Source: Heterodontus francisci
Lineage: Eukaryota
Direction: 5' to 3'
Assembly (NCBI RefSeq): GCF_036365525.1
Contig: NC_090399.1
Location: forward strand, 31,342,430-31,406,429
DNA length: 64,000 nt
How positions within the stretch are numbered: the stretch's first letter is position 1; each line of letters opens with the position of its first letter. Under the pieces are notes generated by a model. The model saw only the letters and a list, made by a program, of their open reading frames with translations. It had not been told where the DNA came from and did not search any database. Positions 6,140-50,329 of the stretch are shown here, piece by piece. Both the position numbers and the translations under genes were made by a program.

Positions 6140-6253
6140 CTTTCTTTCTGCATAACCGCACACAGCGGAGTGCAACAATTAGAAGGACGCCTCCTGTCAC
6201 TGGTGCACTGATGAACAGGATTAGTAACAGACCGTTGATAGATCCTGTTTTTT
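6140..6253 (-). CDS. Transmembrane exon of the NCR3-like gene, copy 1 (uncharged TM)
   Basis: Strong acceptor ctttctctcttttccatag, donor AG|GTAAGG, 114 nt, phase 1-1 and in frame with V1: EKTGSINGLLLILFISAPVTGGVLLIVALRCVRLCRKK. Hydrophobic helix followed by a basic stop-transfer segment. Confidence 0.85.
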
Positions 6254-6284
6254 CTATGGAAAAGAGAGAAAGTCAGATAGAGGC

Positions 6285-6870
6285 GTTGGGACATGTGAGC
6301 AGCAAGAGGCCATTCAACCCCTCGCATCTGTTCCATCATTCAATTAGTTCATGATCGATATGAATCTGACTTATCTGCCACCTTCGTTTTATATCCCTTA
6401 TCACCATTGCCTAAAGAAATCGATAAATTTCAATTTGAACTTTTCAATTTACCTCATCGTCCGTTTTATGGAGGACAGCTCCATATTTCCACCAACTTTT
6501 GTGCGAGGAAATGCCTTCTGAATTCGCTGTTGAATCGCCTAGCTCTAATTTTAAGGTTATGCCCCCTAATTCTTGACCGCCCTCACCAGAAGAAATAATT
6601 TATCTCCATGTGAATACCAAATCCTTTAATCATCTTAAACACCACACCCTAGCATTATTCTGGTGTGTCATGATCCTCTAAGGTCAACATATCCTTCCTG
6701 TGGTGCCGAGAATTGAATGCAATACACCAGATGCAGATCAAATGGAGCTTTAAGTGAATGTACAATAACTTTCCCACTTTTGTATTCAAACCTACCGATG
6801 GGATAAAAACTAACATTCCATTTGCTTTTTTGTTTAGTTTTTGTACTTGCCCTCTTGCTGTTAGAATAAT
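6285..6870 (-). mobile_element. CR1 3' fragment in the V2-TM intron (copy 2 ~48070..48660)
   Basis: KKANGMLVFI remnant and the reverse complement of the CR1 3'UTR (aggccattcaacccctcg). Confidence 0.7.
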
Positions 6871-7240
6871 CATCTCAGTTGACTTCCAAAGTGACTACCA
6901 GACTCTTTTGTAAGTTCCAGGAGCACGATTTGCTTATGATAAGCTCTTACTAACTGAAACATCAGACACTCGGGATGGTGGTGGAATGGTGGTGGAAGCA
7001 CTGACGGTAAAAGCTACACAGCTATTTTAACATTGCAACTATCCCACTTACAACAGGCAGAACAAATTAAAATCCACTCCGCCCAATCCCAGACGGGGAA
7101 AGGACAGTGTCTGATCGACTGCCCCACCTATTCGCAGAGGAGGAAGGGACAGTGTCTGACCCACTGCAACATCCAGTCCTCAAGTATACGGATAATTGTA
7201 ATTGCAGTTTGATGATATTGCAGACAGGAGAATGACAGAC

Positions 7241-7572
7241 CTCTCACAGTGACAAATGTTCCTGCTCCATACTTCTTGTCGAGTCCTTTCATTTTCACGC
7301 TGCAGTAATCAATCCCGGAATCGTTCACTCTCACCGCCTTTATTTTAATGGAAGCGTTTTAAAAATGCTCCGCTTTGGGCCAAAAGATCCGTCCTCTGTA
7401 TCCTGCTTCTCCATTAGAAACATTTGTTCCATTTCTGGCATTCTTGTACCAGTTATAACAATCCTTCCCAATAGACACATTGGCTGTGTGGATACAGGGG
7501 ATGAGCACTGACTCCCCTCCACCGCCTGAATACTCGGTAACTTCTGAATAACTCTGAACTCGGCGTTAATGC
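7241..7572 (-). pseudogene. Second NCR3-like VJ exon (V2), copy 1: 1-nt frameshift plus premature TAA
   Basis: Acceptor gtttctag|GC, donor AG|GTCTGT, 332 nt. (G)INAEFRVIQKLPSIQAVE / frameshift / ...WYKNARNGTNVSNGEAGYRGRIFWPKAEHF*NASIKIKAVRVNDSGIDYCSVKMKGLDKKYGAGTFVTVR. Confidence 0.85.
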
Positions 7573-8082
7573 CTAGAAACCAAATAAATTTAAAATTGCT
7601 GCTTTATGATTGGAAGTTGGAGCTTCCTGAGACAGCCGTGCAGGAGCGGATATGAAGGGCCGACTTTCAAAGTGGATTTATTTGTGTCAGCCCATCCCCT
7701 TTTTACTTATGCAAACAACCAACTAATAACGTGTGCTGTTTTTAATATGGAAGATCCTCCGTTATTTAAACACAAATTGGACAAAAGGTTGCCCCCTCGG
7801 TCGCCCGTTATATACATCGCCCCATATTCAGTTCCACAGACTTCAGTCGCACTGAATATCACATGTGTGGTATAAAGGGTGGTAAAAGCTATCGCGTGCC
7901 TGTTCTGTGTCCCTGTCTGTGTCAACATTCACCCCCAGTCAGTAACCGGTTGATTAACATGGTTAAATAGTCTCTCTGCAGCTCAGGCTGAGTCCGTCTT
8001 GGAGTCCACCACCACGCAGCCATTGTGACAGATGCTCCAGTTGGAGATAGGGCCCCCATATTGTGCAACTGATCCCCAAACC

Positions 8083-8158
8083 GCTCCCCCTCCTCCCCCC
8101 ACCCACCCCACCGCCCCCTCCCCCCCCCCCCCCCCCCCACACCTCCTCCCCCGCCCAC
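8083..8158 (-). repeat. Intronic G-run tract (C-rich on plus) just downstream of the V1 donor; copy 2 ~49871..49945
   Basis: Many G3+ runs and one long homopolymer on the transcribed strand. Confidence 0.85.
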
Positions 8159-8200
8159 ATCCATTGCTTATTTAATATTGCAGGCAGGAGAATGACTGAC

Positions 8201-8542
8201 CTCTCACCGTGAGATTTGTTCCCGCTCCATATTCCTCGCCCAGTTGCATCATTCGCACTTTGCAGTAATACACCCCGGCATCGTTCAGTCTCACGTCCTT
8301 TATTTGGATGGAAGCATCTGCAGTATGAATGAAATCCTCTTTGTGGCTGTAGATCCGTCCGCTGTACTCTGCTGTCTCATTGGAAACTTCTATGCCTTTC
8401 CTGCCATTCTTGTACCAGCTATAAGTCCCTATCAGCTTGGAGACGTTGGCTGTATAGGTACAGGGGAGGGAGACTGTTTGTCCTTCATCTGCCTGAATCC
8501 TGGGCACATTTTGAATAACTGTGAGCTTCTCGGTGTTAATTC
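8201..8542 (-). CDS. NCR3: NCR3/NKp30-like VJ-type Ig V-set exon (V1), copy 1, intact, phase 1-1
   Basis: Acceptor ttttattgattttcag|GA, donor AG|GTCAGT, 342 nt. Translation (G)INTEKLTVIQNVPRIQADEGQTVSLPC...IGTYSWYK...EVSNETAEYSGRI...DAGVYYC...YGAGTNLTVR. Has the B/F-strand Cys, C-strand Trp and a J-like GxGTxLTV in the same exon. By eye it tracks human NKp30 motifs (LPC, IGSVTW, GKEVRNGTPEFRGR, IRDVRGHDASIYVC, GNGTRLVV). Confidence 0.88.
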
Positions 8543-8579
8543 CTGAAAATCAATAAAAGAAAGACTCTATCAGATTAAA

Positions 8580-9430
8580 AGTTGTAAGTTTGAGAGACGA
8601 CATTAAGGCAAACAGCCAAAAGCTTGGTCAAAAAGGTAGGTTTTTAAGGATTGTCTTGAAAGGAGGAAAGCGATCAGGGGAGGTGTATGGAGGAAATTCC
8701 AGAGTTTGGGGCCTAGGCAGGGCCACCAGTGGTGGAGCAATTAAAATCGGGATGCTCAAGACGGCGGAATTCCAGGAGCATAGATATATCGGAGGGTTTG
8801 TGGGACTGCAGAAGATTACAGAGATTGGGAGGGGTGAGGCAATACAGGGGTTGAAAACAAGGATGAGAATTTTAAAATCGAGGCATTGCTTAACTGGGAG
8901 CTAATGTAGGTCAGCGAACACAGGGGTGGTAGGGGAACGGGACTTGATGCGAGTAAGAATACAGGCAGCAGGTTATTGGATGACCTCATGTTTAGGGAGG
9001 GTAGAATGTGGAAGGCCAGCCAGGAATGCATTGGAATAGTCAAGTCTAGAGGTGACAAAGGAATGCATGAGGGTTTCAGCAGCAGATGAGCTGACATGGC
9101 GCAGAGTTGGGCGATATAAAAGAGGTGAAAATAAGTGATCTTATTAGTACCTGTAAGATATGCAGTCCGAAGCTCATTGCAGGGTCAGATGTGACACCAA
9201 GATTATGAGCAATCGGGTTCTGCCTCAAACACTTGCCAGGGAGACGGATGGAGTTGGTAGCTAGGGAACAGAATTTGTAGTGGGGACTGAAGCCAATGGC
9301 TTCAACCTTCACAATCTTTAACGAGAGGAAAGTTCAGCTCACCCATTATTGAATGTCAGACTAACAGTCTGATATTTTAGCAACAGTGGAGGAGTCGAGA
9401 CAGGTGATTTTGAGGTTGAATAAATGACAG
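8580..9430 (-). mobile_element. L2-clade LINE 3' fragment (copy 2 ~50345..51197)
   Basis: Minus strand reads AETLMHSFVTSRLDYSNAFLAG, typical of the L2 RT C-terminus. Confidence 0.8.
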
Positions 9431-10680
9431 CTTGGGCAATACAACAGAAACTCATTGAGCAGTGCCTGTGCAATGTGTCCGCTTTGTTTTTGTATTGCAC
9501 ATTCAGTATTGCCCATTGTTGCACAGTCACCCAAGACAAACCTATACCCCTTAAGAAACAATGGAATGTCCGCTTACCTATGAGGGCAGCCAATATCCAT
9601 AGGATGGGGCTTGGGCTCATTTTCCTGCAGTGGAACGACGGATAAATCAGACAAAACATAAAGTTAACAGTCGAAGTTCGGAAATGAAAACACCTCATTG
9701 CAATTGGGATGGTGAGGACCACTGCAGATAAGAACGCGGAATGGTGGAGAGTGTGGGGGAGTTGTGTTTCCTCCTTGAGTACAACCCCCAGAAATTGCAC
9801 CCCGATTTGCGCCCAATTATGTACCCATTCTTCAGTTGTTCAAGTTACGCCCAAGTATCCACTCAATCTCATTACAATATGCCCGAATTGATAATGGTTA
9901 TAAATCAACATAAACCTTTGGTACTAAGGAAGCTCCAGAACCCAAAGCAGGATATATCATCTTTGTGTCTTAAAATTGCAGTTTCAACTTACTGAACCAC
10001 CATTCATTCACATCAAGCACACACTTTTATTAAGGACCAGCTGATCGGGGAAGCTTTTCAGTGTTTAATGTGACATTTACTTCGCCATAAAAATGTATTA
10101 AAAGAAAGGCAAACTACAATGCCAATCTAACTGAGGACACTTTTTTTAAAAAAAAGACTTAAATGCAATAAAAAAAAAAGTAAAACAAAATGATTGCTTT
10201 CTGAACTGCCTCAAAATCTGGGCCAGCCAATTCAGTTGGAGGATGTTTGGTCAGATTTGACATTTTGGATGTAACCAGTTTTGCGGGGAGAATCTGTTTG
10301 GAAGGGAAGGATTGCAGGAATATCAAGGATAGAGTAGAATTGTGCGTGTTGTAGCTATAGTCGGAACTCGCTTATGCCCAAACTTCCACGATGGTTTGAA
10401 CCACACAATTGGCGTGTGTCCAGAATACGTGGGCATCTGGGCGCAAATATGGCGGAAATTCTTCCTCTGTGTCCAGACATTTGCTGTCTTTGCTGTGGTT
10501 TAGTCATCTGAGCAGACGTGCTGAATGGGACGGATTGAAAAATGATGTTGGGTGCGATGGATAGATCCTAGGGTTCTACTGTTGAATGAAATATTTGTTC
10601 ACTCGTATCGTCACTGGATGATGAGCTCCCTGTTTCACCAGCTTCTCTATTATAGCTCACTCAGGACCTGCTGTACTCAC

Positions 10681-10730
10681 CCATTTTTGGGACCAGACAC
10701 AGAGATAAATAAGAAGAGGGTAATTTTAAC
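10681..10730 (-). other. Candidate (possibly degenerate) leader exon upstream of V1; copy 2 at ~52445..52494
   Basis: Consensus donor ATGG|GTGAGT, phase 1, reading ...SYLSLCLVPKM(G). Hydrophobic runs ITLFLFI and YPLLIYLC lie in the other frames. No in-frame upstream ATG within the exon. Confidence 0.35.
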
Positions 10731-11379
10731 TTTAATGTTGATTGGAAATAAACCGTGCAGATTTTAAAATAGAAAATGCGGTCAAATTAAAATTTGCAAT
10801 ATGTCAGACACGCAAAATACACAAGAAATTAAGCCACTTTTTAAGTTCTTTCCAACCACTTAATTTTGAACAACACACAAATTATTGTTTGTGACGTTGT
10901 TCACCTGATATGTAACGGTGAAACTTTCCTCTTAATTTTAGCAGAAATATCAACTGGATTAGATTAAAGTGGCTGCATTAGGTTTAGGGATAACCGGACA
11001 GTTTTCTTCGCTAGATTAAAGACAGAAATAGAAAATAAAATTGAGGCCCAAAAAAAAGATTACCTGTATAACGTAACTTTTAAAATGACTGCCAGCTCTT
11101 CTGCCAACACCGGTTGACTTCATGAAAATAAGCACAGGGAATATCTGAAATTAAAACAGAAACTGCTCAAAGTGCCCAGTAGCCCAGTCACTCGAGCTCC
11201 TTACCCCGGCTAAAGATAAAATCCATCAGCGTTATGAATATTTCTCTAACCCCAAGTCCTTTGCAATCATCCAGTTCCGCTCATCCCCAAACCAGCTTCC
11301 TTCCCTCACAATCGGTTCTATCTTCCCAGTATATCCTGGGGTAAAGACAGTTATTTCTGAACTCTACTTCTGCTGAAGG

Positions 11380-11930
11380 CTGTTTGATTTTTGCGCACAA
11401 ATCGTACAATTGTTACCTGAAAACTTTATCCGCAGACTGTCTTCCGGGAAAGTTTCACCGTTACATATCAGGTAAGCTTGCTCGCAGGAGCCCCCGCCTC
11501 TCCTGGACGCTGATCAGCGCAGCTCGCTTGCAGGCGTTTAATTTCACACACTTTGCAATGAGCTCGGCTTCTGGACCCGATACTTTACATTCCTGCAACG
11601 TCAAGCAGCCCCGTTTCTATGCCTATTTTCGCCGTGTTCACAAATAAACGCGCCTGTTCTGCTTGGAACGCGGTTTGAATGGCTGAGGACAGGCGAATCA
11701 ATTGTTCTATTTTAATCCATCAAGCATCCGGCTTGACGCAACCACAGAACCCATATCTCCTTCACCATTTTCAGAGACCGGCTCTGTCTCTCGATCATTT
11801 TAGCAAAATCTAATTTCCTGAACACAAGTAAAGCGCAGTAAGAAAACCGCCGAGAGCTCGCAATTTGAATGACGAGGATGGAGGAGTCATCAATAGTACA
11901 GCATATTCAGAGACACAATCATAGATCGAC
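11380..11930. promoter_or_regulatory. CpG-rich island, probable promoter region upstream of the NCR3-like gene, with a GAS/STAT palindrome TTCCGGGAA at 11442-11450 (copy 2 ~53144..53694)
   Basis: Visibly dense CpGs against a CpG-poor background, ~2.9 kb upstream of V1 on the gene's strand. TTCCGGGAA fits the TTCNNNGAA consensus. Confidence 0.45.
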
Positions 11931-11934
11931 CGAT

Positions 11935-13150
11935 ATTCACTCGCGCACACACACACACACATACAATGTCGCAGATATTCACTCAAATGCCACACACGCA
12001 CTGTGACAGAGATATTCATTCAGATAGACAAACACTGTGACAGAGATATTGACTCAGATAGACACACACTGTGACAGAAATATTCACACAGATAGACACA
12101 CACTGTGGGAGAGATTCACACAGAATGACACACACATACTGTGACAGAGATATTTACTCAGATAGACACACACTGTGACAGAAATATTCACACAGATAGA
12201 CACACACTGTGGGAGAGATTCACACAGAATGACACACACATACTGTGACAGAGATATTTACTCAGATAGGCAAACACAGACTGTGGGAGAGATATTCACA
12301 CAGATAGACACACATTGTGACAGAGATACTCACTGAGATAGACACACACACTGTGGCAGAATTTCACTCAGATAGACACACACTGTGTCAGAGATAGTCA
12401 CACAGATAGACACATTCACACTGTGAGTGAGATATTCACACAGATAGACACACACACTGACAGAGATACGCACTGAGATGGGCACACATACACTGAGCCA
12501 GAGATATACACACAGACAGACACACACAGACAGTGTGGCAGAGATATACACACATATGGACGTGCACATACTGTGGCAGAGATATTCACACAGATGGACA
12601 CACACACACACTGTGCCAGAGATATTCACACAGGGAAGACACACACAAACTGTGGCAGAATGTTCACTCAGATGGACACACACGGTGACAGAGATATTTA
12701 CACAGATAACACGCTCCCACTGTGACAGAGATATTCAGAGAGATAGTCACACACACTGTGACAGAGATATTCCCATATAGACAAACATACACTGTGACAG
12801 AATATTCACTCAGATAGACACACATACTGTGACAGAGATATTCCCATATAGACAAACATACACTGTGACAGAATATTCACTCAGATAGACACACACACGG
12901 TGACAGAGATATTCACTCAGATGGACACACACACGAAGGGAGAGATATTCATTCAGATAGACACATTCACACTGTGCCAGAGATATTCACACAGATAGAC
13001 ACACACACACACTATAACAGAGATATTCACACTGATAGACACACGCATACCATGGCAGAGATATTCACGCAGATAGACAACTCATACTGTGCCAGAGATA
13101 TTCACACAGATAGAAACACACGCACACTGTGGCAGAGATATTCACTCAGA
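11935..13150. repeat. Minisatellite, ~32-38 bp unit (cactgtgacagagatattcacacagatagacaca)
   Basis: Roughly 35 degenerate tandem units. Source of the Cys/Val-rich spurious ORFs. Confidence 0.95.
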
Positions 13151-13299
13151 TATAAATGTATGAATATAGAAAAATTCATATTGGCACAAATAAATATTGT
13201 TATACTGATAAAAGGGAAATTCATACACACGGATACACAGCCAAGCACTCAGAGATATGCAAAAACACATTCATAGACAAATGTAACACCTATATTCAT

Positions 13300-13835
13300 G
13301 AAGGAGATAGAAAACAGGAAATTATAGGCCAGTTAGTCTAACATCTACGATAGCGTAATTGTTACAATCCATTATGAAGGAGGTAATAGCAGGACATTTA
13401 GAAAATCATTATACAATCAGGCCGAGTCAATACGGTTTTGTGAAAGGGAAATTAAGTTGACCAACACATACAACAATTTTTCATTCGTATCTGGTGCAAA
13501 AATTGAACTGGAAAGGTGGCTCAACCGTGGCTTACAAAAGAAATTAGGGATAGTATTAGATCCAAAGAAGAGGCATATAAAATTGCCAGAAAAAGCAGCA
13601 AGTCTGAGGATTGGGAGCAATTTAGAACTCAGCAAAGGAGGACAAAGCGGATGATTAAGCGTGTGAACATAGAATATGAGAGTAAACTTGCAGGGAACAT
13701 AAAAACTGACTGTAAAAGCTTCTATAAATCTGTGAAGAAAAAAGATTACTGAAGACAAATATACGTCCCTTACAGTCAGAAACGGGGGAAATTATAATAG
13801 GGAAAAAATAAATGGCAGAACAATTCAACACATAC
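13300..13835 (+). mobile_element. CR1 ORF2 internal fragments (copy 2 ~55096..55632)
   Basis: AQPWLTKEIRDSIRSKEEAY...NIKTDCKSFYK. Confidence 0.85.
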
Positions 13836-13841
13836 TTTAAT

Positions 13842-14150
13842 TAAAGCAAAATACTGCGGATGCTGAAAATCTGAAATAAAAACAAGAAATGCTGGAAATA
13901 CTCAGCAGGTCTGGCAGCATCTGTGGACAGAGAAGCAGAGTTAACGTTTCGGATCAGTGACCCTTCTTCCGAACTCGAAGAAGCAGTTGCAGATGGTTGC
14001 ATAGTGGCAATGTCACTGCACTAGTAATCCAGAGGCCCAGGCCAATGCCCTGAGGACATGGGTTCAAATCTCACCATGGCAGCTGATGGAATTTAAATTT
14101 AATTAATAAGTTAAATTAATTAATTAAAAACCATCGGGAATTTAAAGCTA
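13842..14150 (+). mobile_element. Short interspersed repeat (aaaatactgcggatgctg...cagcatctgtgg) followed by a Deu/SacSINE-like SINE head
   Basis: The first motif recurs at ~17435 (-), 23222 and 26240. The second part has tRNA-like boxes (tagtggcaatgtc, gggttcaaatc). Confidence 0.6.
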
Positions 14151-14302
14151 GTTCTACAATACTGAGAAGTGTACAGGGAGTAGAGGGACATTGGAGTGAA
14201 TGTCCACAGATCCCTGAAGGTAGCAGCACAGGTCGATAAGGTGGTTAAGAAGGTATATGGAATCCTTTCTTTTATTAGAATATAAAAAGAGGAAGGTTAT
14301 GC

Positions 14303-16870
14303 CGAGGTTAGAAACAGGAGAGGAGAGGTCACCCTGTTGGGAGTTTTCTATAGACCTCCGAATAGTTCCAGAGATGTAGAGGAAAGGATAGCGAAGATGA
14401 TTCTCGACAGGAGCGAGAGTAACAGGGTAGTGGTTATGGGGGACTTTAACTTTCCAAATATTGACTGGAAATACTATAGTTCGAGTACTTTAGATGGGTC
14501 TGTTTTTGTCCAGTGTGTGCAGGAGGGTTTTCGGACACAGTATGTGGACAGGCCAACCAGGGGCGATGCCACATTGGATTTGGTACTGGGTAATGAACCC
14601 GGCCAGGTGTTCGATTTAGATGTTGGTGAGCACTTTGGCGATAGTGATCACAATTCGGTTAGGTTTACCTTAGCGATGGGCAGGGACAGGTATATACCAC
14701 AGGGCAAGAATTATAGCTGGGGGAAAGGAAATTATGACGCGATTAGGCAAGATTTAGGATGTGTAGGATGGGGAAGGAAACTGCAGGGGATGGGCACAAA
14801 CGAAATGTGGAGCTTATTCAAGGAGCAGCTAATGCGTGTCCTTGATAAGTATGTACCTGTCAGGCAGGGAGGAAGTTGTCGAGCAAGGGAGCCGTGGTTT
14901 ACTCAAGAAGTTGAAGCGCTTGTCAAGAGGAAGAGGGCGGCTTATGTTAGGATGAGACGTGAAGGCTCAGTTAGGGCGCTTGAGAGTTACAAGCTAGCCA
15001 GGAAGGATCTAAAGGGAGGGCTAAGAAGAGCAAGGAGAGGACACGAGAAGTCATTGGCGGATAGGATCAAAGAAAACCCTAAGGCTTTCTATAGGTATAT
15101 CAGGAATAAACAAATGATAAGAGTTAGAACAGGGCCAATCAAGGATAGTAGTGGGAAGTTGTGTGCGGAATCAGAGGAGATAGGGGAAGCGTTAAATGAA
15201 TATTTTTCGTCAGTATTTACAGTAGAGAAAGAAAATGTTGCCGAGGAGATTACTGAGATACAGCCTACTAGGCTAGATGGGATTGAGATTCACAAGGAGG
15301 AGGTGTTAGCAATTTTGGAAAGAGTGAAAATAGATAAGTCCCCTGGGCCAGATGGGATTTATCCTAGGATTCTCTGGGAAGCCAGGGAGGAGATTGCAGA
15401 GCCGTTGTTGTTGATCTTCAAGTCGTCATTGTCGACAGGAGTAGTGCCGGAGGACTGGAGGATAGCAAATGTTGTCCCCTTGTTCAAGAAGGGGAGTAGA
15501 GACAGCCCTGGTAATTATAGACCTGTGAGCCTTACTTCGGTTGTGGGTAAAATGTTGGAAAAGGTTATAAGAGACAGGATTTATAATCATCTTGAAAAGA
15601 ATAAGTTCATTTGCGATAGTCAGCACGGTTTTGTGAAAGGTAGGTCGTGCCTCACAAACCTTATTGAGTTTTTCGAGAAGGTGACCAAACAGGTGGATGA
15701 GGGTAAAGCCGTGGATGTGGTGTATATGGATTTCAGTAAGGCGTTTGATAAGGTTCCCCACGGTAGGCTATTGCAGAAAATACGCAAGTATGGGGTTGAA
15801 GGTGATTTAGAGCTTTGGATCAGAAATTGGCTAGCTGAAAGAAGACAGAGGGTGGTGGTTGATGGCAAATGTTCATCCTGGAGTTTAGTTACTAGTGGTG
15901 TACCGCAAGGTTCTGTTTTGGGGCCACTGCTGTTTGTCATTTTTATAAACGACCTGGATGAGGGTGTAGAAGGGTGGGTGAGTAAATTTGCGGATGACAC
16001 GAAGGTCGGTGGAGTTGTGGATAGTGTCGAAGGGTGTTGTAGGGTACAGAGGGACATAGATAGGCTGCAGAGCTGGGCTGAGAGATGGCAAATGGAGTTT
16101 AATGCGGAGAAGTGTGAGGTGATTCACTTTGGAAGGAGTAACAGCAATGCAGAGTACTGGGCTAATGGGAAGATTCTTGGTAGTGTAGATGAGCAGAGAG
16201 ATCTTGGTATCCAGGTACATAAATCCCTGAAAGTTGCTACCCAGGTTAATAGGGCTGTTAAGAAGGCATATGGTGTGTTAGCCTTTATTAGTAGGGGGAT
16301 CGAGTTTCAGAGCCACGGGGTCATGATGCAGCTGTACAAAACTCTGGTGAGGCCGCACCTGGAGTATTGCGTGCAGTTCTGGTCACCGCATTATAGGAAG
16401 GATGTCGAAGCTTTGGAAAGGGTGCAGAGGAGATTTACTAGGATGTTGCCTGGTATGGAAGGAAGGTCTTACGAGGAAAGGCTGAGGGACTTGGGGTTGT
16501 TTTCGTTAGAGAGAAGGAGGAGGAGAGGTGACTTAATAGAGACATACAAGATAATCAGAGGGTTAGATAGGGTGGATAGTGAGAGTCTTTTTCCTCGGAT
16601 GAGGATGGCAAACACGAGGGGACATAGCTTTAAGTTGAGGGGTGAAAGATATAGGACAGATGTCAGAGGTAGTTTCTTTACGCAGAGAGTAGTAGGGGCG
16701 TGGAACGCCCTGCCTGCAACAGTAGTAGACTCGCCAACTTTAAGGGCATTTAAGTGGTCATTGGATAGACATATGGATGTAAATGGAATAGTGTAGGTCA
16801 GATGATCGGCGCAACATCGAGGGCCGAAGGGCCTGTACTGCGCTGTAATATTCTAATAATTCTAATTCTA
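14303..16870 (+). mobile_element. Young 5'-truncated CR1 (HER1-like) LINE, copy 1 only
   Basis: Absent from copy 2 (empty site ggttatgc-tgt-ataactgg at 56091-56109). Ends in the CR1 3'UTR and a (ttctaa)n tail. Confidence 0.95.
14337..16796 (+). CDS. CR1 ORF2 fragment: C-terminal half of the AP endonuclease plus complete reverse transcriptase (N-terminus truncated, no true start)
   Basis: 819 uninterrupted codons. APE motifs MGDFN, LDLVL, SDH. RT motifs KSPGPDG, NYRPVSL, QHGF, DFSKAFDKVPH, GVPQGSVLGP, FADD. CR1 C-terminus LERRRRRGDLI...TRGH. Confidence 0.95.
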   Translation: MGVFYRPPNSSRDVEERIAKMILDRSESNRVVVMGDFNFPNIDWKYYSSSTLDGSVFVQCVQEGFRTQYVDRPTRGDATLDLVLGNEPGQVFDLDVGEHFGDSDHNSVRFTLAMGRDRYIPQGKNYSWGKGNYDAIRQDLGCVGWGRKLQGMGTNEMWSLFKEQLMRVLDKYVPVRQGGSCRAREPWFTQEVEALVKRKRAAYVRMRREGSVRALESYKLARKDLKGGLRRARRGHEKSLADRIKENPKAFYRYIRNKQMIRVRTGPIKDSSGKLCAESEEIGEALNEYFSSVFTVEKENVAEEITEIQPTRLDGIEIHKEEVLAILERVKIDKSPGPDGIYPRILWEAREEIAEPLLLIFKSSLSTGVVPEDWRIANVVPLFKKGSRDSPGNYRPVSLTSVVGKMLEKVIRDRIYNHLEKNKFICDSQHGFVKGRSCLTNLIEFFEKVTKQVDEGKAVDVVYMDFSKAFDKVPHGRLLQKIRKYGVEGDLELWIRNWLAERRQRVVVDGKCSSWSLVTSGVPQGSVLGPLLFVIFINDLDEGVEGWVSKFADDTKVGGVVDSVEGCCRVQRDIDRLQSWAERWQMEFNAEKCEVIHFGRSNSNAEYWANGKILGSVDEQRDLGIQVHKSLKVATQVNRAVKKAYGVLAFISRGIEFQSHGVMMQLYKTLVRPHLEYCVQFWSPHYRKDVEALERVQRRFTRMLPGMEGRSYEERLRDLGLFSLERRRRRGDLIETYKIIRGLDRVDSESLFPRMRMANTRGHSFKLRGERYRTDVRGSFFTQRVVGAWNALPATVVDSPTLRAFKWSLDRHMDVNGIV

Positions 16871-17400
16871 ATAACTGGTTAGATCACAACTTGCGTACTG
16901 TGTGCAATTTTGGTCACCTCATTACAGAAAGGATGTAAATGCGCCAGAGAGGGTACAGAGGAGGTTTACAAGGATGTTGACAGGACTGAAAAATGCAGCT
17001 ATGAGGAAAGATTGGATAGACTGAGGTTGTTCTCCTTGGAACAGGGAAATTTTATTGAATTGTACAAAATTTTGAAGGACATGGATAGAGTGGAGGTGAA
17101 GGGTCTATTCACCTTAGCATAGAGATCAGTGACAAGGGGGTGCATTGATTTAAAGTGATTGATGGAAAGGTTAGAAGGGAGATGAGGATTCATTTCACCC
17201 AGAGGGTGGTGGGGGTCTGGAACTCACTGCCTGAAAGGATAGTTGAGGCAGAAACCCCCGCTTCATTGTAAAGAAGTCTGGATATGCACCTCAAGTGCCA
17301 TAATTTGCAGGGCTACGGATTAGAATGGGTGGATCGTTTTCCGTCCCACACAGACATGATGGGCCATGTGGCCTCTTTCTGTGCCTTAAGATTACTATGA
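16871..17400 (+). mobile_element. Old CR1 3' fragment, host of the young CR1; continuous in copy 2 at ~55960..56630
   Basis: SYEERLDRLRLFSLE...; the 5' part lies at 14165..14302. Confidence 0.85.
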
Positions 17401-17828: not shown

Positions 17829-17852
17829 CGTGCGAAGTCATTTCATCATCAC
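17829..17852 (-). other. Candidate 24-nt micro-exon, phase 1-1, (G)DDEMTSH; copy 2 at 57060..57083
   Basis: Strong acceptor tttatttttctctcttcag and donor CG|GTATTT in a short unique island between repeats. Confidence 0.3.
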
Positions 17853-41600: not shown

Positions 41601-42301
41601 GAATTTGACAAAGGGATCTAAAAAGTTTGGAATTTTTAAACATTGCGGGAGGAATGTGTTCTGAAACATAAATTTCCTGTTTCTTTGAAAAGTATTTGTT
41701 TAAACTATACATAGCTCGTGGTTTGTTCTGGCTCAGTCGGAAAGGAGTGGTGACATCATCACTAGTCCATCTGAAAACGTTCGCCCCACCCCCTTTCAGA
41801 CGAGCGGAAAGTTAACCCTTTCCGCTTGCAGTTTAAAGCTGGCCATACAACTTTCAAAATTTATCGCAACAAGATTGCTCAGAGGTTCAGGAATTTGATC
41901 AGACATCTACAATGAATTGAAGCTGATGAATTAAACGAAATTACTTTGTGTTGGTATTCTAACCTGAAATTTAAAGAGATTCAAGTTAAACAATAAAACC
42001 AGACACACGGACCTGGTGGTTTCTGCTTGGACAACAGTAAATATTGGACTAAATATGCAAACAACATCACTGTGTGTTAGCTCAGAGCTTTAGTGAAGGT
42101 ATCTATCCTGGATAGATAGATTGAAAAGGGAAAAATCTAAAAGTCAAGGGATTCGTACTTTACCTTCCAGGAATGCCACATGGGGTGACGCCACTCCTGA
42201 TGGTCTCAAGTCAAATGACATGACTCACATTCTGTTTCTGCCAACAGGAGGGCCAGTAACAGATCGCTTAGTTATTTTGTTTCAGCTGAACCACTAGAGC
42301 A

Positions 42302-43920
42302 ATGGCAACCTGGTGGGTAGCAGTAACGGTGATCACTCTCCTGGTAACCAGAGCAGCAAGGAAGCCGCCCACTGCAAGTCTCAACAGAACCACATGCCTA
42401 TATCCAAGACAGTACGTGCAACTATCTAAAGGAGGGAGCACCTCAAGGGCGTCTAACACCAGAGTGAACATCGCGGTGGGAGGGACCAATCTGTCTCTAG
42501 TTGTTTGAGAACTCAAAGGGAAGGGTCTGTGACATGTTGGATCAGGATTTGGTAGATAAGGTTGTTTCAGATACTGAAGATATAAGATTTGGTATGGCCG
42601 CCCGACATATACATCAGGCTGTGAAAAGTTTAAATCTGATTAATTTGGACGAGGAAGGACAGGAACTGGTAGTTACACAACCTATAATGGGCGGAGTGGA
42701 GAGTAAAATCAAATCCCTGATGATTGTGCTTCAAGAACATGCAAATAGCACCTATACAGGGGGATATAAATTCGTATCCCTGGGGGTGCTGAGGGATGAG
42801 TTGGTGTGTATGGAGGACCCTGGGGATATATGGCTCCCTGTTTAAATGGTACTCTTCGATGAGAGTGGGGGATTCAATTACTAGAGGACACGAGTTCAAA
42901 GTGAAAGGGGAAAAGTTTAGGGGGGATATGCGTGGAAAGTTCTTTACGCAGAGGGTGGTGGGTGCCTGGAACGCGTTGCCAGCGGAGGTGGTAGATGCGG
43001 GCACGATGGCGTCTTTTAAGATGTATCTAGACAGATACATGAATGGGCAGGAAGAAAAGAGATACAGACCCTTAGAAAATAGGCGACATGTTTAGATAGA
43101 GGATCTGGATCGGCGCAGGCTTGGAGGGCCGAAGGGCCTGTTCCTGTGCTGTAATTTTCTTTGTTCTTTGTTCTTTGAGAACATGAGAATGTTGGACTGA
43201 GTTGCAGCATTACATCATCTGCTCTTGTAATACTCGGATACCCATCAGCAATGACTCTGCCATAGTGGTATCCATTAGCACTCTTGAAGAAGCCTTGAAG
43301 ACAGTGAAAACCTCCACTTCCCAAATTGTGCTTTTTGACGGACAAGAAAAGGTTCTTATACGGAGGATTGGAGTGTAATACTAATCACACCTTCTGCCTA
43401 CAATTCACTGATTCCTTTACAGTCAAACTACATGACTCACAGTGGGGGATTTCCATCTTGAGGACAGGGTCCTCATGCTTATGTGTTCAGCCCATGGTGG
43501 GATGGTCACTAAACATTGACAATGTCCCAGAAAGAATAGCCTAGAAGTGGTGCAAAGGGCCTCAGCCACCACTAGGAGATTTATGGAGCAAAGCCGTCAA
43601 ACAATCGCAAGGGGCAAGGTGCCAGTGAACCTAGCCAAAGGACTGGCTAGAGTATTGGAGGACTTGGCCAGAAATCAAGCCAAGATGGCAGGAATGGGAA
43701 TAACTGATGGGAAGTGGGAAAGATCGCTGCCGCCATTGTGACAATTGCAGCCCTGTTAGTTGGTGCCTGCATTTGTTGCTGGCAGAGGCTGAAGTTATCC
43801 CAAGCGGTGCAGATGATGATATTGGCCAACAAACGGTACACCCCAGTATCTACCGCAGTTGAAGCCCCTCTCCAAGGGAATATTAAACTCTGGAATATTT
43901 AAGAGGATTTTGCTATCTAA
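42302..43920 (+). pseudogene. Decayed envelope-like gene, copy 2, interrupted by a CR1 3' fragment
   Basis: As copy 1, but retains more ectodomain sequence (ECWTELQHYIICSCNTRIPISND; LCFLTDKKRFLYGGLECNTNHTFCLQF; helical RFMEQSRQTIARGK...LARVLEDLARNQ). Confidence 0.7.
42865..43175 (+). mobile_element. 5'-truncated CR1/HER1 LINE insertion, copy 2 only, TSD TGAGA
   Basis: ORF2 C-terminus TRGHEFK...FFTQRVVGAWNALP, 3'UTR ggccgaagggcctgtt and (tgttctt)n tail. Empty site at 2885-2891 in copy 1. Confidence 0.92.
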
Positions 43921-45489
43921 AGGGATAATAGTTTCGGGCCCAGCCTAGGTCAATAGGACTTCAGTGAAGCCGTAAGAGAATGGTCGACCATGATATCTGA
44001 AACCCACTGAACTCCAGTAGGATCCCTAGAGCAATTGGTGAGTGGAGGATGTCGGGAATGACCCGACTGGGTCAGTTGCTGCGTCTGACTAGAGGTCCAA
44101 AAGGAAGGACTGAAGTGGGACCAAAAGGGTAATATTAATGGAATTAGTATTACAATGTATTAACGTTTAGAAGAATTACAGTAGTTGTAAGGGACCATGG
44201 AATGATGGGATGCTGGACCACTATGCTGGAACTGTGCAACTCTGTACTTAATTGCCTTCGTGGTCTGTGTAAACATGCTTTTCTTGTTTCACTGATCAAA
44301 GAGATAAGGGGAAAGGCTGGAGACGAGACAATCAGCAAATTATGGGAGCTGGTAGATTCAAGGTTTGGGAGGAGATAGCAGGAGAATGTTTGTGGGGCAA
44401 TACAATCCAGGTTATTGATCAAGCTGCAGACCTATAATGTATCAGTGTAGTGTGAACAATGAGTAATGGTTATTGTATTCTATAAATGTGTGCTCCAGTC
44501 TCTCTTTCACTCAGAAGCTGTTTGGGTGACCAAGGCTTCTCCCTTGCCGTTGCTTGATTGAAAGCCTTTATTTGCTTTAATCCCGTGGTCTCGAGAGTGG
44601 TTATGTTCTCCATAACAAGAACAACCCTAGCTTCTCCGACTTCACCTTGTAACTACAATCCTCCATCCCTGGAACCATTCTGGGAAATCGCCTCTCCACT
44701 CTCTCAAGGATCCTCACATTCTTCCTGAGGTGTTGTGACCAGAACTTGATGCAGTCCTCCAGTTGGAGCCTAACTAGAGCTTTATAAAAGTTCAGCATAA
44801 CTTCCATGATTTTGCACTCAATGCCTCTATTTATGAATCCCTAGATCCCATATGCTTTACTAACCGGTCTCTCAACATGTCATGCCACCTTCAAAGACCC
44901 CCATGTCCTTTTGTCCCTGCAAATTCTTTAGAACTGTACCATTACGTATATATTGTCTCACCCTATACCTTCTGCCAAAAAGCATGATCTCACACTTGGT
45001 TGTATTAAATTCCACTGGCCACTTTTCTGATTTAAGTGGATGCTGGATCAGTACATGAGAAAGAAAGCAAAGCAATAGAGGTTATGCTGACAGAGTTAGA
45101 TGAAGGAGGATGGGAAGAGGCTCAGGTGGAGCATAAAAACTGGCATAGACCAAGTGGGTTAAAAGGTTTGTTTCTGTGCTATATTTTCTATGGAATTGTA
45201 CATACCTTAAATCAAAATTAAATTCTTGGGCCTTGTCGCTTTGTGAAGATCAGTGTACCAATAGGTTCTAACTAAATTGCTATTTTAAGGGATAGATTTA
45301 CCTGTTTATTAGACACACTAGCCTGTGTGTTATAGCAATTGAGAAAACCAACTTTATACAATCCCATTAAACCTCTATGCATCTGTTTCCCACACATAAT
45401 GTGAAAGCGTAAGACATGTAGCATGAACACCTCGAGCAGAGGGTGTCCAAGCTTTTGTCTTCCTGGGCCACACAGCCTTGGGAAAGGAC

Positions 45490-45707
45490 TCATACGACAA
45501 GTCTACTCCAAATCCTATTGATTTGCAATTGGCTCAAGTTGCTCTTCGGAACAGATTTGTGTTTGAATTCAGGATTTATCCAGCAACCGGGCACCAGTGA
45601 CGGGAGAACATAGCTCTTTGCAACCTTCCATGAAACCACCAAAGTGAGAAATGTTGTAGAAATAATCTTGGTCAATAGCACACAACGGGAAATATTGCAT
45701 CGGGCAC
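45490..45707 (-). CDS. Candidate alternative terminal TM exon with Lys in the membrane segment (copy 2)
   Basis: Phase-1 NAGNAG acceptor (tttagcag|GT) gives GARCNISRCVLLTKIISTTFLTLVVSWKVAKSY...*. Weak pyrimidine tract. The copy-1 equivalent (5129..5339) has a 7-nt deletion after the acceptor. Confidence 0.3.
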
Positions 45708-47925
45708 CTGCTAAATGTTCAGCCTGATAATCCAATCCTTTCCAGTCAATGGGTATAGTTGCATAGTATTTATGCTACTGAACCAAATTGCAGAGGCCTG
45801 TACTAATGATCCAGAGGCATGAGTACACAAACCCATCCCATCAACTGGAGAAATTAAATTCAGTTAATTAAATAAATTTGGAATTTAAAAAGAAACTAGC
45901 ACCTGTAGTAGTGACCATAAAACGACTGGGTTTGTCGCAAAAACCATCTGGTTCACTCATGTCCTTTCGAGAAGGAAACTTGCCGTCCTTACCTGTCAGG
46001 GCTTATATGTAAATCCAGACCAACACCAATGTGGTTGACTCTTAACTGCCCTCTGAAATTGCCTAGCAAATCATTCGGTTGTCTCAAGGTCAAACTGGAG
46101 GTGGGCAATAAAGGCTGGCCCTGCCAGTAGTGTCCACATTCCCATGAATGAGTAAATAAGAGAAATGAATATTGGACGGGCAGGCAGGTGATTGCTTTAT
46201 TCATTCCTGTAGTGTGAGCATCATTGGTAAGGCCAGCATTTATTGTCCATCCCTAATTTCCCTTGAGAAGGTGGTGGTGAACTGCCTTCTTGTACTGCTG
46301 CAGTCCATGTGGTGTAGGTGCACCCACAATGCTTTTTTTCCCCTGTAGCGGTTTGATACAACTGAGTGGTTTGGTGGGCAATTTCAGAGGGGAGTTAAGA
46401 GTGAACCAAATTGATGTGGATCTGGAGTCATGTGCAAGCCAGACCGGGCAAGGACAGCATATTTCCTGCCGTGAAAGACATTAGTAAACTAGCCAGGTGT
46501 TTACGATAATCTGGTAGTTTAATGATTGTTATTAATGAGAGCAGCATTTTCCTCCAGGTTTTATTAATCAATTGAATTTAAGTTCCCCCCCCCCCCCCCC
46601 CCAATCTGGAGTGGTGATTTGAACTTATGTCTCCAGAACATCAGTTCAAGCCTCTGGATTACTAGCCTAGTAATATTACCACTATACTACCGCTACCATT
46701 TCCTCTTATAATGTCCCCCATTTTGCATTAACACTCATATTAAATTCCTACCCCACCACACAAAAATAACATCCCTTTTTTATAGGTTCTGCAAGATGGG
46801 ATTAGAATGGGCAGCTAGTTTTTTTCAGCTGGCGCCGACATGATGGACTGAATGGCCTCTTTCTGTGCCGTACGTTTTCTGTGTCACCCAGATTGCGAAG
46901 GACGCATGACTGGGTCTTAGGATGCACATCCTTCTTTATTTTTTCATACAGATAACCTTGCTAACCAATTCTTAATGTCCCTGAAAATGTGTTGGCAGTT
47001 TTTTTTTTCTTGAAGCAGCTGCTGTTATAACTAAGTATCTCGGACTTGAGAGAGCATCATGTGTCAACCGAAGTTACTTGCAGGTCAAAGCATGATGATA
47101 TATTCCCAGCCGATTTTTTCCAAAATTCTGCAACTTTCAAAGCCATTCCCCATTGTCAAATTACCATATTCATTAAATGTAACTTCACCACTAACTAAAG
47201 TATCGTTTTAACTGACAAGAACACTGTGGCTGGTCTGGTACCATCTCTACAGTATTGGTCTGATTATTTAAGGAAGGATGTAAATGCGTTGGAAGCAGTT
47301 CAGAGAAGGTTAACTAGACTAATATGGAATGAGCGGGTTGTCTTATGAGGGAATGTTGGACAGGCTAGGCTTGCAGCCGCTGGAGTTTAGAAGAGGATGA
47401 GGCGACTTGATTGAAACATATCAGGTCCTGAGGGGTAGATGTAGAAAGGTGTTTTTCCCATGTGGGAGTATCTGGAACTAGGGGGTCACTATTTAGAAAA
47501 AAAGAGTTACCTATTTAAGACATAAGTTAGATTTTTTTTCTCAGATGGTCGTGAGCCCTTGGAACTCTCTTCCACAAAAGGCGGTGGAAGCAGTCTTTGA
47601 ATATGTTTAAGGCAGAGGCAGATAGATTCTTGCTAAGCAAGGCGGTGAAAGGTTATTGGGGTTAGGCGGGATGTGGAGTTGAGGTTACAATCAGATCAGT
47701 CATGATGTTATCGAATGGCGGATCAGGCTCAAGGGCCAAGTGGCCTACTTCTCTTCCTAATTCGCATGTTCATATGTTCGTACTACATCACTGTACCCAT
47801 TAGCCAATGTACCCCTAGAGCTGCCAATTGGATACCTCGCACTTAATTATTCAATGTAAATCTTCCCACCACAATATTGCACAACCTTAACGCTTATCAA
47901 ACAGCAAAAAAATCGACATCATTAC

Positions 47926-48039
47926 CTTTTTTTCTGCGTAACTGCACACAGCGGAGTGCAACAATTAGAAGGACGCCTCCTGTCACTGGTGCACTGATGA
48001 CCAGGGTTAGTAACAGACCGTTGATAGATTCTGTTTTCT
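47926..48039 (-). CDS. Transmembrane exon of the NCR3-like gene, copy 2
   Basis: 114 nt, ccatag|...|GTAATG. EKTESINGLLLTLVISAPVTGGVLLIVALRCVQLRRKK. Confidence 0.85.
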
Positions 48040-49029
48040 CTATGGAGAAGAGAGAAAGTCAGATAGAGGCGTTGGGACATGTGAGCAGCAAGAGGCCATT
48101 CAACCCCTCGCGTCTGTTCCATCATTCAATTAGTTCATGATCGATATGAATCTTACTTATCTGCCATATTCGTTTTATATCCCTTATCACCATTACCTAA
48201 AGAAATCTATAAATTTCAATTTTGAACATTTCAATTTTCCTCATCTCCAACAGTTTTCTGGAGGACAGCTCCATATTTCCACCACATTTTGTGCGAGGAA
48301 CTGCCTTCTGAATTCGCTGTTGAATCGCCTAGCTCTAATTTTAAGGTTATGCCCCCTTGTTCTTGACCGCCCTCACCAGAAGAAATGATTTATCTCCTTG
48401 CGAATACCAAATCCTTTAATCATCTTAAACACCACACCCTAGCATTATTCTGGTGTGTCATGATCCTCTAAGGTCAACATATCCTTCCTGTGGTGCCGAG
48501 AATTGAATGCAATACACCAGATGCAGATCAAATGGAGCTTTAAGTGAATGTACAATAACTTTCCCACTTTTGTATTCCAACCTACCGATGGGATAAAAAC
48601 TAACATTCCATTTTCTTTTTTGTTTAGTTTTTGGACTTGTCCTCTTGCTGTTAGAATAATCATCTCAGTTGACTTCCAAAGTGACTACCAGACTCTTTTG
48701 TAAGTTCCAGGAGCACGATTTGCTTATGATAAGCTCTTATTACTGAAACAATAGACACTCGGGATGGTGGTGGAATGGTGGTGGAAGCACTGACGGTAAA
48801 AGCTACACAGCTATTTTAACATTGCAACTATCCCACTTACAACAGGCAGAACAAATTAAAATCCACTCCGCCCAATCCCAGACGGGGAAAGGACAGTGTC
48901 TGATCGACTGCCCCACCTATTCGCAGAGGAGGAAGGGACAGTGTCTGACCCACTGCAACATCCAGTCCTCAGGTATACGGATAATTGTAATTGCAGTTTG
49001 ATGATATTGCAGACAGGAGAATGACAGAC

Positions 49030-49362
49030 CTCTCACAGTGAGAAATGTTCCTGCTCCATACTTCTTGTCGAGTCCTTTCATTTTCACGCTGCAGTAATCA
49101 ATCCCGGAATCGTTCACTCTCACCGCCTTTATTTTAATGGAAGCGTTTTAAAAATCCTCCGCTTTGGGCCAAAAGATCCGTCCTCTGTATCCTGCTTCTC
49201 CATTAGAAACATTTGTTCCATTTCTGGCATTCTTGTACCAGTTATAACATTCCTTCCCAATAGACACATTGGCTGTGTGGATACAGGGGATGAGCACTGA
49301 CTCCCCTTCCACCGCCTGAATACTCGGCAACTTCTGAATAACTCTGAACTCGGCGTTAATGC
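49030..49362 (-). pseudogene. Second NCR3-like VJ exon (V2), copy 2: in frame but with premature TAA
   Basis: 333 nt, splice sites intact. In-frame TAA at 49148-49150 after PKAEDF, three codons shorter than V1 at that point. Lacks the copy-1 frameshift. Confidence 0.85.
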
Positions 49363-49987
49363 CTAGAAACCAAATAAATTTAAAATTGCTGCTTTATCAT
49401 TGGAAGTTGGAGCTTCCTGAGACAGCCGTGCAGGAGCGGATATGAAGGGCCGACTTTCAAAGTGGATTTATTTGTGTCAGCCCATCCCCTTTTTACATAT
49501 GCAAACAACCAACTAATAACGTGTGCTGTTTTTAATATGGAAGATCCTCCGTTATTTAAACACAAATTGGACAAAAGGTTGCCCCCTCGGTCGCCCGTTA
49601 TATACATCGCCCCATATTCAGTTCCACAGACTTCAGTCGCACTGAATATCACATGTGTGGTATAAAGGGTGGTAAAAGCTATCGCGTGCCTGTTCTGTGT
49701 CCCTGTCTGTGTCAACATTCACCCCCAGTCAGTAACCGGTTGATTAACATGGTTAAATAGTCTCTCTGCAGCTAAGGCTGAGTCCGTCTTGGAGTCCACC
49801 ACAACGCAGCCATTGTGACAGATGCTCCAGTTGGAGATAGGGCCCCCATATTGTGCAGCTGATCCCCAAACCCCTCCCCCTCCTCCCCCACCCACCCCAC
49901 CGCCCCCCCCCCCCCCCCCCCCCACCCACCTCCTCCCCCGCCCACATCCATTGCTTATTTAATATTGCAGGCAGGAGAATGACTGAC

Positions 49988-50329
49988 CTCTCACCGTGAG
50001 ATTTGTTCCCGCTCCATATTCCTCGCCCAGTTGCATCATTCGCACTTTGCAGTAATACACCCCGGCATCGTTCAGTCTCACGTCCTTTATTTGGATGGAA
50101 GCATCTGCAGTATGAATGAAATCCTCTTTGTGGCTGTAGATCCGTCCTCTGTACTCTGCTGTCTCATTGGAAACTTCTATGCCTTTCCTGCCATTCTTGT
50201 ACCAGCTATAAGTCCCTATCAGCTTGGAGACGTTGGCTGTATAGGTACAGGGGAGGGAGACTGTTTGTCCTTCATCTGCCTGAATCCTGGGCACATTTTG
50301 AATAACTGTGAGCTTCTCGGTGTTAATTC
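49988..50329 (-). CDS. NCR3: NCR3/NKp30-like VJ-type Ig V-set exon (V1), copy 2, intact
   Basis: Same as copy 1 except EYSGR->EYRGR. Acceptor ttttcag and donor GTCAGT retained. Confidence 0.88.

What the first reader, a model, noticed from the sequence alone, without database searches (positions are those of the whole stretch)
6140..50329. Tandemly expanding cluster of NCR3/NKp30-like VJ receptors with a V1-V2-TM layout
Seen: two ~40-kb periods, each with two paralogous germline-joined VJ exons and a TM exon, all phase 1. The window starts and ends inside a period, so the array may continue. Known: NKp30 has a non-rearranging VJ-type IgSF domain, a single V exon in mammals, and an MHC-linked multigene family in sharks. 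Inference: this is birth-and-death expansion of an innate receptor family, with a two-V-exon layout unlike mammalian NCR3.
Basis: partly seen in the sequence, partly recalled or inferred. Interest (0 to 1): 0.75.

Follow-up and report, generated by a model that had tools for sequence, protein, structure and literature searches.

The report
Shark NKp30-like inhibitory receptor and decoy
Two recently duplicated horn-shark immune receptor genes related to NKp30 share an almost identical binding domain and carry a broken second domain exon, and one likely signals inhibition while the other, fused to a neighbour's tail, likely acts as a non-signalling decoy.

Summary
The duplication and exons are real. 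The window is horn shark, and both genes are RefSeq models. The 'V1-V2-TM receptor' is not supported: V2 has a stop codon in both copies and a frameshift in copy A, so the membrane product is L-V1-TM. An intact V2 exists in a horn-shark paralogue and in catshark, so two V domains are ancestral and were lost here. V1 is closest to NKp30 by sequence and fold, and the white-shark and catshark relatives lie in the MHC beside C4. Unlike NKp30 there is no transmembrane arginine. Copy A has a YxxM/ITIM tail conserved to rays. Copy B's last two exons come from another NCR3-like subtype. Its main mRNA likely gives a 193-residue, ITIM-less protein (inferred from RNA contig lengths, one sample). The copies differ by 0.52% over leader/V1 and 3.98% over TM, pointing to recent unequal crossover. 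Copy number and array length stay untested. Verdict: known family, new variant, modest interest.

The parts
1..24834 (.). Duplicated block, copy A (gene A from TM to upstream flank; its cytoplasmic exons lie left of the window)
   Evidence: Self-BLAST; alignment; residues 167-365 of RefSeq P0005 are not encoded in the window apart from a homologous exon of copy B
39677..64000 (.). Duplicated block, copy B
9578..9620 (-). Leader coding exon, copy A (43 nt, ends in phase 1)
8201..8542 (-). V1, intact germline-joined VJ exon, copy A
7241..7572 (-). V2 pseudo-exon, copy A: 1-nt deletion plus TAA; included in some transcripts
   Evidence: RefSeq isoform P0173 starts inside it and joins TM; X5 record 20
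6140..6253 (-). Stalk/TM exon, copy A, no charged TM residue
1226..1269 (-). 44-nt optional exon, copy A version; not in the RefSeq gene-A proteins seen (P0005, P0173)
6963..6963 (.). Step in A/B divergence (48752 in copy B), between V2 and TM: likely crossover or conversion boundary
   Evidence: Change-point log-likelihood gain 165
14305..16869 (+). LINE retrotransposon insertion found only in copy A, 836-codon open frame with RT and endonuclease (CR1 label recalled)
11300..11800 (.). CpG-rich putative promoter or 5' UTR exon (53060-53560 in B); inferred
   Evidence: CpG o/e 0.98 and 0.97 against 0.42 for the window
51345..51387 (-). Leader coding exon, copy B
49988..50329 (-). V1, copy B (one amino acid differs from A); RNA-like contigs end at its exon borders
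49030..49362 (-). V2 pseudo-exon, copy B: in-frame TAA at 49150-49148; 83% identical to the intact third domain of paralogue P0164
47926..48039 (-). Stalk/TM exon, copy B, no charged TM residue
40902..40945 (-). 44-nt optional exon; including it shifts the frame so that the last exon's ITIM is read (RefSeq P0006, 257 aa)
37046..37064 (-). 19-nt cytoplasmic micro-exon of copy B (type I origin)
36425..36462 (-). 38-nt cytoplasmic exon of copy B (type I origin)
34581..34634 (-). 54-nt exon from a type II NCR3-like gene; holds the stop codon of the 193-aa form
32571..32690 (-). Coding part of the last exon from a type II NCR3-like gene, ITIM VQYSAL; AATAAA signals at 32290, 32017 and 31845

Best explanation
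These are two tandem copies of a shark NKp30-related gene whose second V exon is broken, so both would make single-V membrane receptors with near-identical binding domains: copy A likely an inhibitory ITIM receptor, and copy B, a chimera with a neighbour's last exons, likely a short-tailed decoy. Shown: exon anatomy, the V2 lesions, uncharged TMs, copy A's YxxM, ITIM and Y(D/E)EL motifs (from the RefSeq model, exons outside the window) conserved to rays, the type II origin of B's last two exons, and the divergence step. Inferred history: an ancestral L-V1-V2-TM-tail gene lost V2 by a stop codon and duplicated (4% divergence). One copy was fused by deletion to the 3' end of a downstream type II gene, out of frame. 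A recent unequal crossover (or long conversion) then made leader, V1 and upstream DNA 99.5% identical. Inferred function: A binds a B7-family or similar cell-surface ligand and recruits SH2 phosphatases through its ITIM. B binds the same ligand, but its main form has no ITIM, so it would dilute A's signal. Including the V2 pseudo-exon in A gives a premature stop and would lower A's output.
For: V2 lesions. RefSeq models P0005 and P0006 join V1 to TM; my exon join reproduces P0006 at 257 aa. RNA-like contigs of runs X5 and X6 end exactly at the V1 donor and carry 69 and 96 further letters. Both lengths are natural contig ends for the A/B variants of the TM exon (11 of 114 positions are) and neither is for V2. 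Records 18 and 26 carry 160 letters upstream of the last exon, which fits 1+54+38+19+48 TM letters. In X6 this gives an exact 30-nt overlap with record 31, and the form ends at 193 aa, with its stop 28 nt before the last junction and no ITIM. V2 inclusion in A: RefSeq isoform P0173 and X5 record 20. Tail motifs in alignment A1: YxxM tyrosine in 6 of 7 sequences, ITIM in 6 of 7, Y(D/E)EL in 7 of 7. B's last exons score 148 against type II P0083 and 43 against gene A's tail. Family: human NKp30 62 bits, the next different protein 39.8, SIRP-alpha 31.5; top Foldseek and VIA hits are NKp30. MHC position of relatives.
Against: No ligand, cell type or signalling was tested. The RNA evidence is contigs, not reads, from runs only guessed to be RNA, from one sample, and splice partners are deduced from lengths, not seen as letters. 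The 160-letter arithmetic also fits a form with the 44-nt exon (start at TM 111, one past a variant), and RefSeq's only protein seen for B includes that exon and an ITIM. B may simply be a damaged gene with no role. Listed DNA contigs have similar depth in the shared zone (6.7-10.2) and the once-seen zone (7.6-12.8), not the 2:1 expected for two copies with one B tail, though the tool states that depth is no copy number. The V-domain tree did not join shark and mammal-like NCR3 rows in a starred clade and placed SIRP-like rows among shark rows at unstarred support. Copy A's tail exons lie outside the window and rest on the RefSeq model.
Confidence: 0.55

Rival explanations
1. Neutral birth and death: A is the working inhibitory receptor, and B is a transcribed but functionless chimeric duplicate on its way to loss.
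For: B's tail is out of frame with its borrowed ITIM exon. TM differs by 5 non-synonymous and 1 synonymous codon between copies. B has a 20-nt deletion in the V1 acceptor tract. The 0.5% identity zone covers at least 15 kb of mostly non-coding DNA, as any recent duplication would.
Against: B keeps intact leader, V1 and TM frames. V1 contigs in both RNA-like runs match B with 0 other letters, and the short form's stop sits 28 nt before the last junction, which would escape decay. This rival differs from the best explanation only in whether B's product matters.
Confidence: 0.25
2. Both copies are inhibitory receptors with alternative ITIM tails; B's working form includes the 44-nt exon and ends in VQYSAL.
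For: RefSeq P0006 is this form, under four listed accessions. The last exon's frame is open for 39 codons with an intact ITIM. The 160-letter contig arithmetic allows it.
Against: The exact 30-nt overlap of X6 records 31 and 26 fits only the form without that exon. In this form the 19- and 38-nt exons are read out of their ancestral frame.
Confidence: 0.1
3. Assembly artefact: two haplotypes of one locus laid in tandem.
For: 0.52% divergence over leader/V1 is in a range that alleles can show (general knowledge). DNA contig depth is not doubled in the shared zone.
Against: 3.98% divergence, three insertions of 299-1417 nt and unrelated last exons distinguish the 3' halves. B-only sequence is not at half the depth of shared sequence. 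One X1 contig over 44926-45886 has 6 differences where A has 35, hinting at a third version (weak, could be a mosaic).
Confidence: 0.08
4. One reading: a functional two-domain V1-V2-TM receptor.
For: V2 keeps AG/GT ends and is sometimes spliced to TM. Relatives do have tandem V domains.
Against: A stop in both copies and a frameshift in A. The RNA-like contig with a V2-like sequence matches the intact paralogue P0164 at 4 of 4 amino-acid-changing sites listed.
Confidence: 0.02

Closest known systems
Mammalian NKp30 (NCR3)
   Same: Single germline-joined VJ-type IgV exon; best sequence and fold match (62 bits; Foldseek E 5e-12, TM about 0.8; VIA Z 15.8, rmsd 2.3 over 108); MHC chromosome, through relatives.
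   Different: No TM arginine (defining for NKp30 per PMC6514059 passages); long tyrosine-motif tail in A; relatives have 1-5 V domains; relatives lie by C4/RGL-like, while a separate NCR3 cluster lies by AIF1/PRRC2A in white shark.
Shark NCR3 multigene family (Kinlein et al. 2021, PMID 33742259, not held and recalled; Verissimo et al. 2023, PMC10751288)
   Same: MHC-linked multigene VJ receptors. Nurse-shark NCR3 QTT61898 also lacks a charged TM residue. The catshark relative sits next to a gene labelled NCR3.
   Different: The window's genes fall in a different clade from QTT61898. Their white-shark and catshark relatives are unlabelled in the Verissimo tables. Whether Kinlein's subtypes include this clade or describe ITIM tails could not be checked.
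Paired receptors such as Siglec-11/Siglec-16 (PMC5701461, abstract read)
   Same: Neighbouring genes with homogenised ligand-binding exons and different tails.
   Different: The partner here has no charged TM residue and no activating motif, so the pair is inhibitory plus silent, not inhibitory plus activating. The homogenised tract is at least 15 kb.
SIRP family
   Same: VJ-like IgV, ITIM tails; RefSeq names some cluster members SIRP-like.
   Different: About half the bit score and 27-29% identity in fold alignments; no C1 domains (Pfam finds one Ig stretch).

Membership tests
NCR3/NKp30-related VJ receptors (broad family) | V and J segments joined in one germline exon | tested here: met
   342-nt exon with Cys27, Cys93, DAGVYYC and YGAGT
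NCR3/NKp30-related VJ receptors (broad family) | V domain closer to NKp30 than to other IgSF | tested here: met
   phmmer against PDB: NKp30 ranks 1-4 of 182; fold searches rank NKp30 first (the model's alignment held mammal-like NCR3 rows); reverse search ranks V1 8th and 9th of 89 domains at 67-69 bits, SIRP-like rows at most 12.5 (set chosen by likeness to V1)
NCR3/NKp30-related VJ receptors (broad family) | One clade with tetrapod NCR3, excluding SIRP, CD28, TREM/CD300 and TCR V | tested here: inconclusive
   Deep forks unstarred; SIRP-like rows fall among shark rows; CD28, TREM/CD300 and TCR were not in the tree
NCR3/NKp30-related VJ receptors (broad family) | MHC linkage | tested here: met
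   Indirect: white-shark LOC121291130 (chr19, 88.66-88.70 Mb) and catshark LOC119975535 both lie between RGL-like/C4C and C4B-H; not tested in horn shark itself
Mammalian-type activating NKp30 | Arginine in the TM pairing with CD3-zeta/FcR-gamma | tested here: not met
   No charged residue in either TM; feature from PMC6514059
Mammalian-type activating NKp30 | Short tail without its own signalling motifs | tested here: not met
   Copy A tail of 208 aa with YxxM and ITIM
Mammalian-type activating NKp30 | Binds B7-H6 | not testable with these tools
Mammalian-type activating NKp30 | Expressed on NK or T cells | not testable with these tools
   Run tissues not on record
Classical paired receptors | Near-identical ectodomains | tested here: met
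   1 of 113 V1 residues differs
Classical paired receptors | One partner activating through a charged TM residue or ITAM | tested here: not met
   Neither copy has one
Classical paired receptors | Both expressed in the same cells | not testable with these tools
   Only bulk contigs of one sample
SIRP | V-C1-C1 ectodomain (recalled) | tested here: not met
   One Ig stretch in P0005 and P0006; no C exon found in the six-frame motif scan

The most novel reading that the evidence does not exclude
Elasmobranchs keep an ancient MHC-linked, C4-adjacent branch of NKp30-related receptors that is inhibitory and modular (1-5 tandem VJ domains). Horn shark has turned it into a tunable inhibitory/decoy pair: a dead V2 exon works as a poison exon on the inhibitory copy, and a tail-swapped copy switches between silent and ITIM forms by one 44-nt exon. 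This would suggest that the ancestral NKp30 was a checkpoint-type receptor, like its CD28/PD-1 relatives, and that the activating TM arginine came later.
Probability: 0.2. Interest if true: 0.65.

Novelty: new variant of a known kind. Interest (0 to 1): 0.36.

Why it matters
Shark NCR3-like genes and their MHC linkage are known, so the family is no surprise. If the reading holds, it adds three things. First, a conserved inhibitory branch of the NKp30 family, spanning rays and sharks, that RefSeq mostly leaves uncharacterised or misnames. Second, V-domain number that changes freely between species. Third, a worked case of exon death and tail swapping making an inhibitory/decoy pair. It bears on whether germline VJ receptors, proposed relatives of the antigen-receptor precursor, first worked as activators or brakes, and gives named genes to test. 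If B is just decaying, this is ordinary immune-gene turnover.

Tried and rejected
No whole genome was held, so unit count, array ends and direct MHC linkage in horn shark were not tested. Kinlein 2021 was not held by DOI or PMC id. Paper searches for NCR3/shark/NKp30, NCR3/cartilaginous fish/MHC (21), the MHC paper title terms (23), NKp30/XMIV/ITIM (34), NKp30/shark/inhibitory/multigene/Xenopus (56, 0 papers), NKp30/cartilaginous fish (57) and XMIV/Xenopus/MHC (66, 0 papers) listed no paper on this locus or on horn-shark NCR3 genes. Most subscription papers are not in the library, so this does not show the reading is unpublished. The 'near' length protein search found 0 of 1 candidates. The earlier-findings look-ups were empty. 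The single-sequence structure model was poor (pLDDT 46.9) and was replaced by an alignment-based one (93.8). The profile search of PDB is circular, as the profile held mammal-like NCR3 rows, and is not used as evidence. No listed holder of the stretch is on record as RNA. In one search the bin holding the 44-nt exon had no cover in X5 or X6, and X6 had none at 49249-49283; a hole proves nothing and is not counted. Laying 19.9 kb at 90% likeness let repeats swamp the variant and joint tables, so splice joints were not listed and the test for a third sequence version was mostly lost. DNA contig depths could not settle copy number. No type II V or TM exon remnant was found in 24835-39676 by tblastn. 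A complex prediction was not run: no ligand sequence was held.
Full report
Observation. Self-comparison shows positions 1-24834 repeated at 39677-64000 with offsets of 39.2-41.8 kb; 24835-39676 occurs once. Each copy holds, on the minus strand, a leader exon, a 342-nt VJ exon (V1), a second V-like exon (V2) and a 114-nt TM exon. V1 of copy A is 100% identical, and V1 of copy B 99% identical to that query, in RefSeq proteins of Heterodontus francisci on one 74.47-Mb contig: XP_067865383-6 (P0005, copy A) and XP_067865388-91 (P0006, copy B) (6 hits of 65 candidates).

V2 is dead. Both copies have TAA at the same codon; copy A also lacks one base (332 against 333 nt), and the F-strand motif no longer matches DxGxYxC. 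Joining V2 in gives products that stop before the TM. RefSeq's main models skip it. In the one read-laying run (runs X5 and X6 guessed RNA, X1 and X3 guessed DNA, all one sample, contigs only), V1 contigs stop at the exact donor 49988 with 69 and 96 letters left over. Both numbers are natural de Bruijn ends for the seven A/B variants in TM (11 of 114 positions are), and neither is for V2. This is deduction from lengths: the joints themselves were not listed. V2 is sometimes spliced to TM in copy A: X5 record 20, and RefSeq isoform P0173, which begins at a methionine inside V2. A second V2-like contig in X5 matches the intact third domain of paralogue P0164 at 4 of 4 listed amino-acid-changing sites.

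Two V domains are ancestral, not new. V2, P0164 domain 3 and catshark LOC119975535 domain 2 form a starred clade (99/83). The window's V1 groups with other horn-shark V1-type domains (96/85) inside a 25-row shark and ray clade (99/89). The tree held 89 domains from 53 proteins picked by hand from about 170 held; long multi-Ig hits were left out. Relatives have 1 (bamboo sharks), 2 (catshark), 3 (white shark, P0164) or 2-5 (devil ray) V domains in their database models.

Family. Human NKp30 takes ranks 1-4 of 182 PDB sequences at about 62 bits, ahead of pIgR (39.8), IgNAR V (33.7) and SIRP-alpha (31.5). The alignment-based model (pLDDT 93.8) finds NKp30 first by Foldseek and by VIA-align (Z 15.8, rmsd 2.3, 108 aligned; next row PILRA 14.6). 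Against this, the tree's deep forks are unstarred and SIRP-like rows fall among shark rows. The 'mammal-like NCR3' labels are mine, from resemblance. In the supplement of PMC10751288 (parts 5, 6 and 9 of 98 read, plus three term searches), the white-shark relative LOC121291130 lies on MHC chromosome 19 between RGL-like/C4C and C4B-H, and the catshark relative has the same neighbours. Both are unlabelled there, while five labelled NCR3 genes lie about 13 Mb away next to AIF1/PRRC2A in white shark, and one labelled NCR3 gene lies directly downstream of the catshark relative. Horn shark has at least four genes of this clade and three of other NCR3-like types on one contig; their order was not seen.

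Signalling. Neither TM has a charged residue, whereas two mammal-like rows have arginine and four type I relatives have glutamate (20 proteins examined; for catshark P0018 the model lacks a TM and my finder misplaced it). Copy A's RefSeq tail, whose exons lie left of the window, has SIYTPM, IQYATI and YGYEEL. The YxxM tyrosine is kept in 6 of 7, the ITIM in 6 of 7 and Y(D/E)EL in 7 of 7 aligned type I proteins from horn shark to devil ray. That ITIMs recruit SH2 phosphatases is general knowledge. Copy B's last two exons match the tail of a different subtype, P0083 (score 148 against 43 for gene A), so B is a chimera with a junction between 34635 and 36424. The phases do not match: without the 44-nt exon the protein ends at 193 residues with no ITIM; with it, RefSeq's 257-residue form reads VQYSAL. 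Records 18 and 26 have 160 letters upstream of the last exon, 55 of them accounted for by the 54-nt exon plus one base. Two of eight exon combinations give a natural start (TM 67 without the 44-nt exon, TM 111 with it). The first is favoured because X6 record 31 ends at TM 96, an exact 30-nt overlap.

History. Divergence steps from 277 of 6962 columns (3.98%) to 79 of 15186 (0.52%) at 6963/48752, between TM and V2. The young zone runs to the window's end, long for gene conversion (general knowledge), so I infer unequal crossover, which predicts another B-type 3' half to the right. DNA contig depths are similar in shared and once-seen zones. That fits such a third part-copy, does not fit two alleles with a hemizygous tail, and does not fit two copies with a single B tail; the tool warns that depth is no copy number, so this stays open.

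Literature seen: PMC10751288 (passages and the supplement parts named), PMC12227049, PMC6514059, PMC3972465, PMC3964593 and PMC10450919 (passages), PMC5701461 (abstract and outline). Kinlein 2021 was seen only as a reference-list entry; its content is recalled and may already describe ITIM-bearing subtypes or this clade, which would lower novelty.

Noticed in passing
window 1-24834 against 39677-64000: Substitutions between the copies are transversion-rich (isolated sites: 63 transitions to 108 transversions in the old zone, 25 to 44 in the young zone), close to random, whereas repeat-derived differences in run X1 give 194 to 168. Unexplained.
   Followed up: partly
window 14305-16869: Young LINE insertion only in copy A, with an unbroken 836-codon frame (RT and endonuclease), about 4.7 kb upstream of the leader exon.
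   Followed up: partly
window 41470-41768, 42860-43175, 45892-47308: Three insertions present only in copy B, in the intron after TM.
   Followed up: no
window 50335: Copy B lacks 20 nt of the pyrimidine tract before V1, yet RNA-like contigs start at that exon's border.
   Followed up: partly
P0014, P0164, P0009, P0010: Related type I receptors have a glutamate in the TM that both window copies lack; an acidic TM residue is unusual for a receptor chain and may pair with a partner.
   Followed up: no
window 48992-49161, X6 record 30: An unspliced low-depth contig has 1 difference where A would have 2 and B none; a possible further allele or an error.
   Followed up: no
window 11955-13152 and 53733-54948; 18327-19395 and 57558-58626: Minisatellites of about 36-nt and 52-nt period upstream of each gene.
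   Followed up: no
window 27644-29126 (minus): Open frames of 244 and 174 codons with a CCHC-like motif, resembling a decayed retroelement gag region by eye; no Pfam hit.
   Followed up: partly
P0019, P0021, P0031, P0034, P0038: NCR3-like proteins in the frog clade of the tree (P0019 and P0021 named as frogs, the others unnamed) also show 2-3 tandem VJ domains, so multi-V forms are not confined to sharks.
   Followed up: partly
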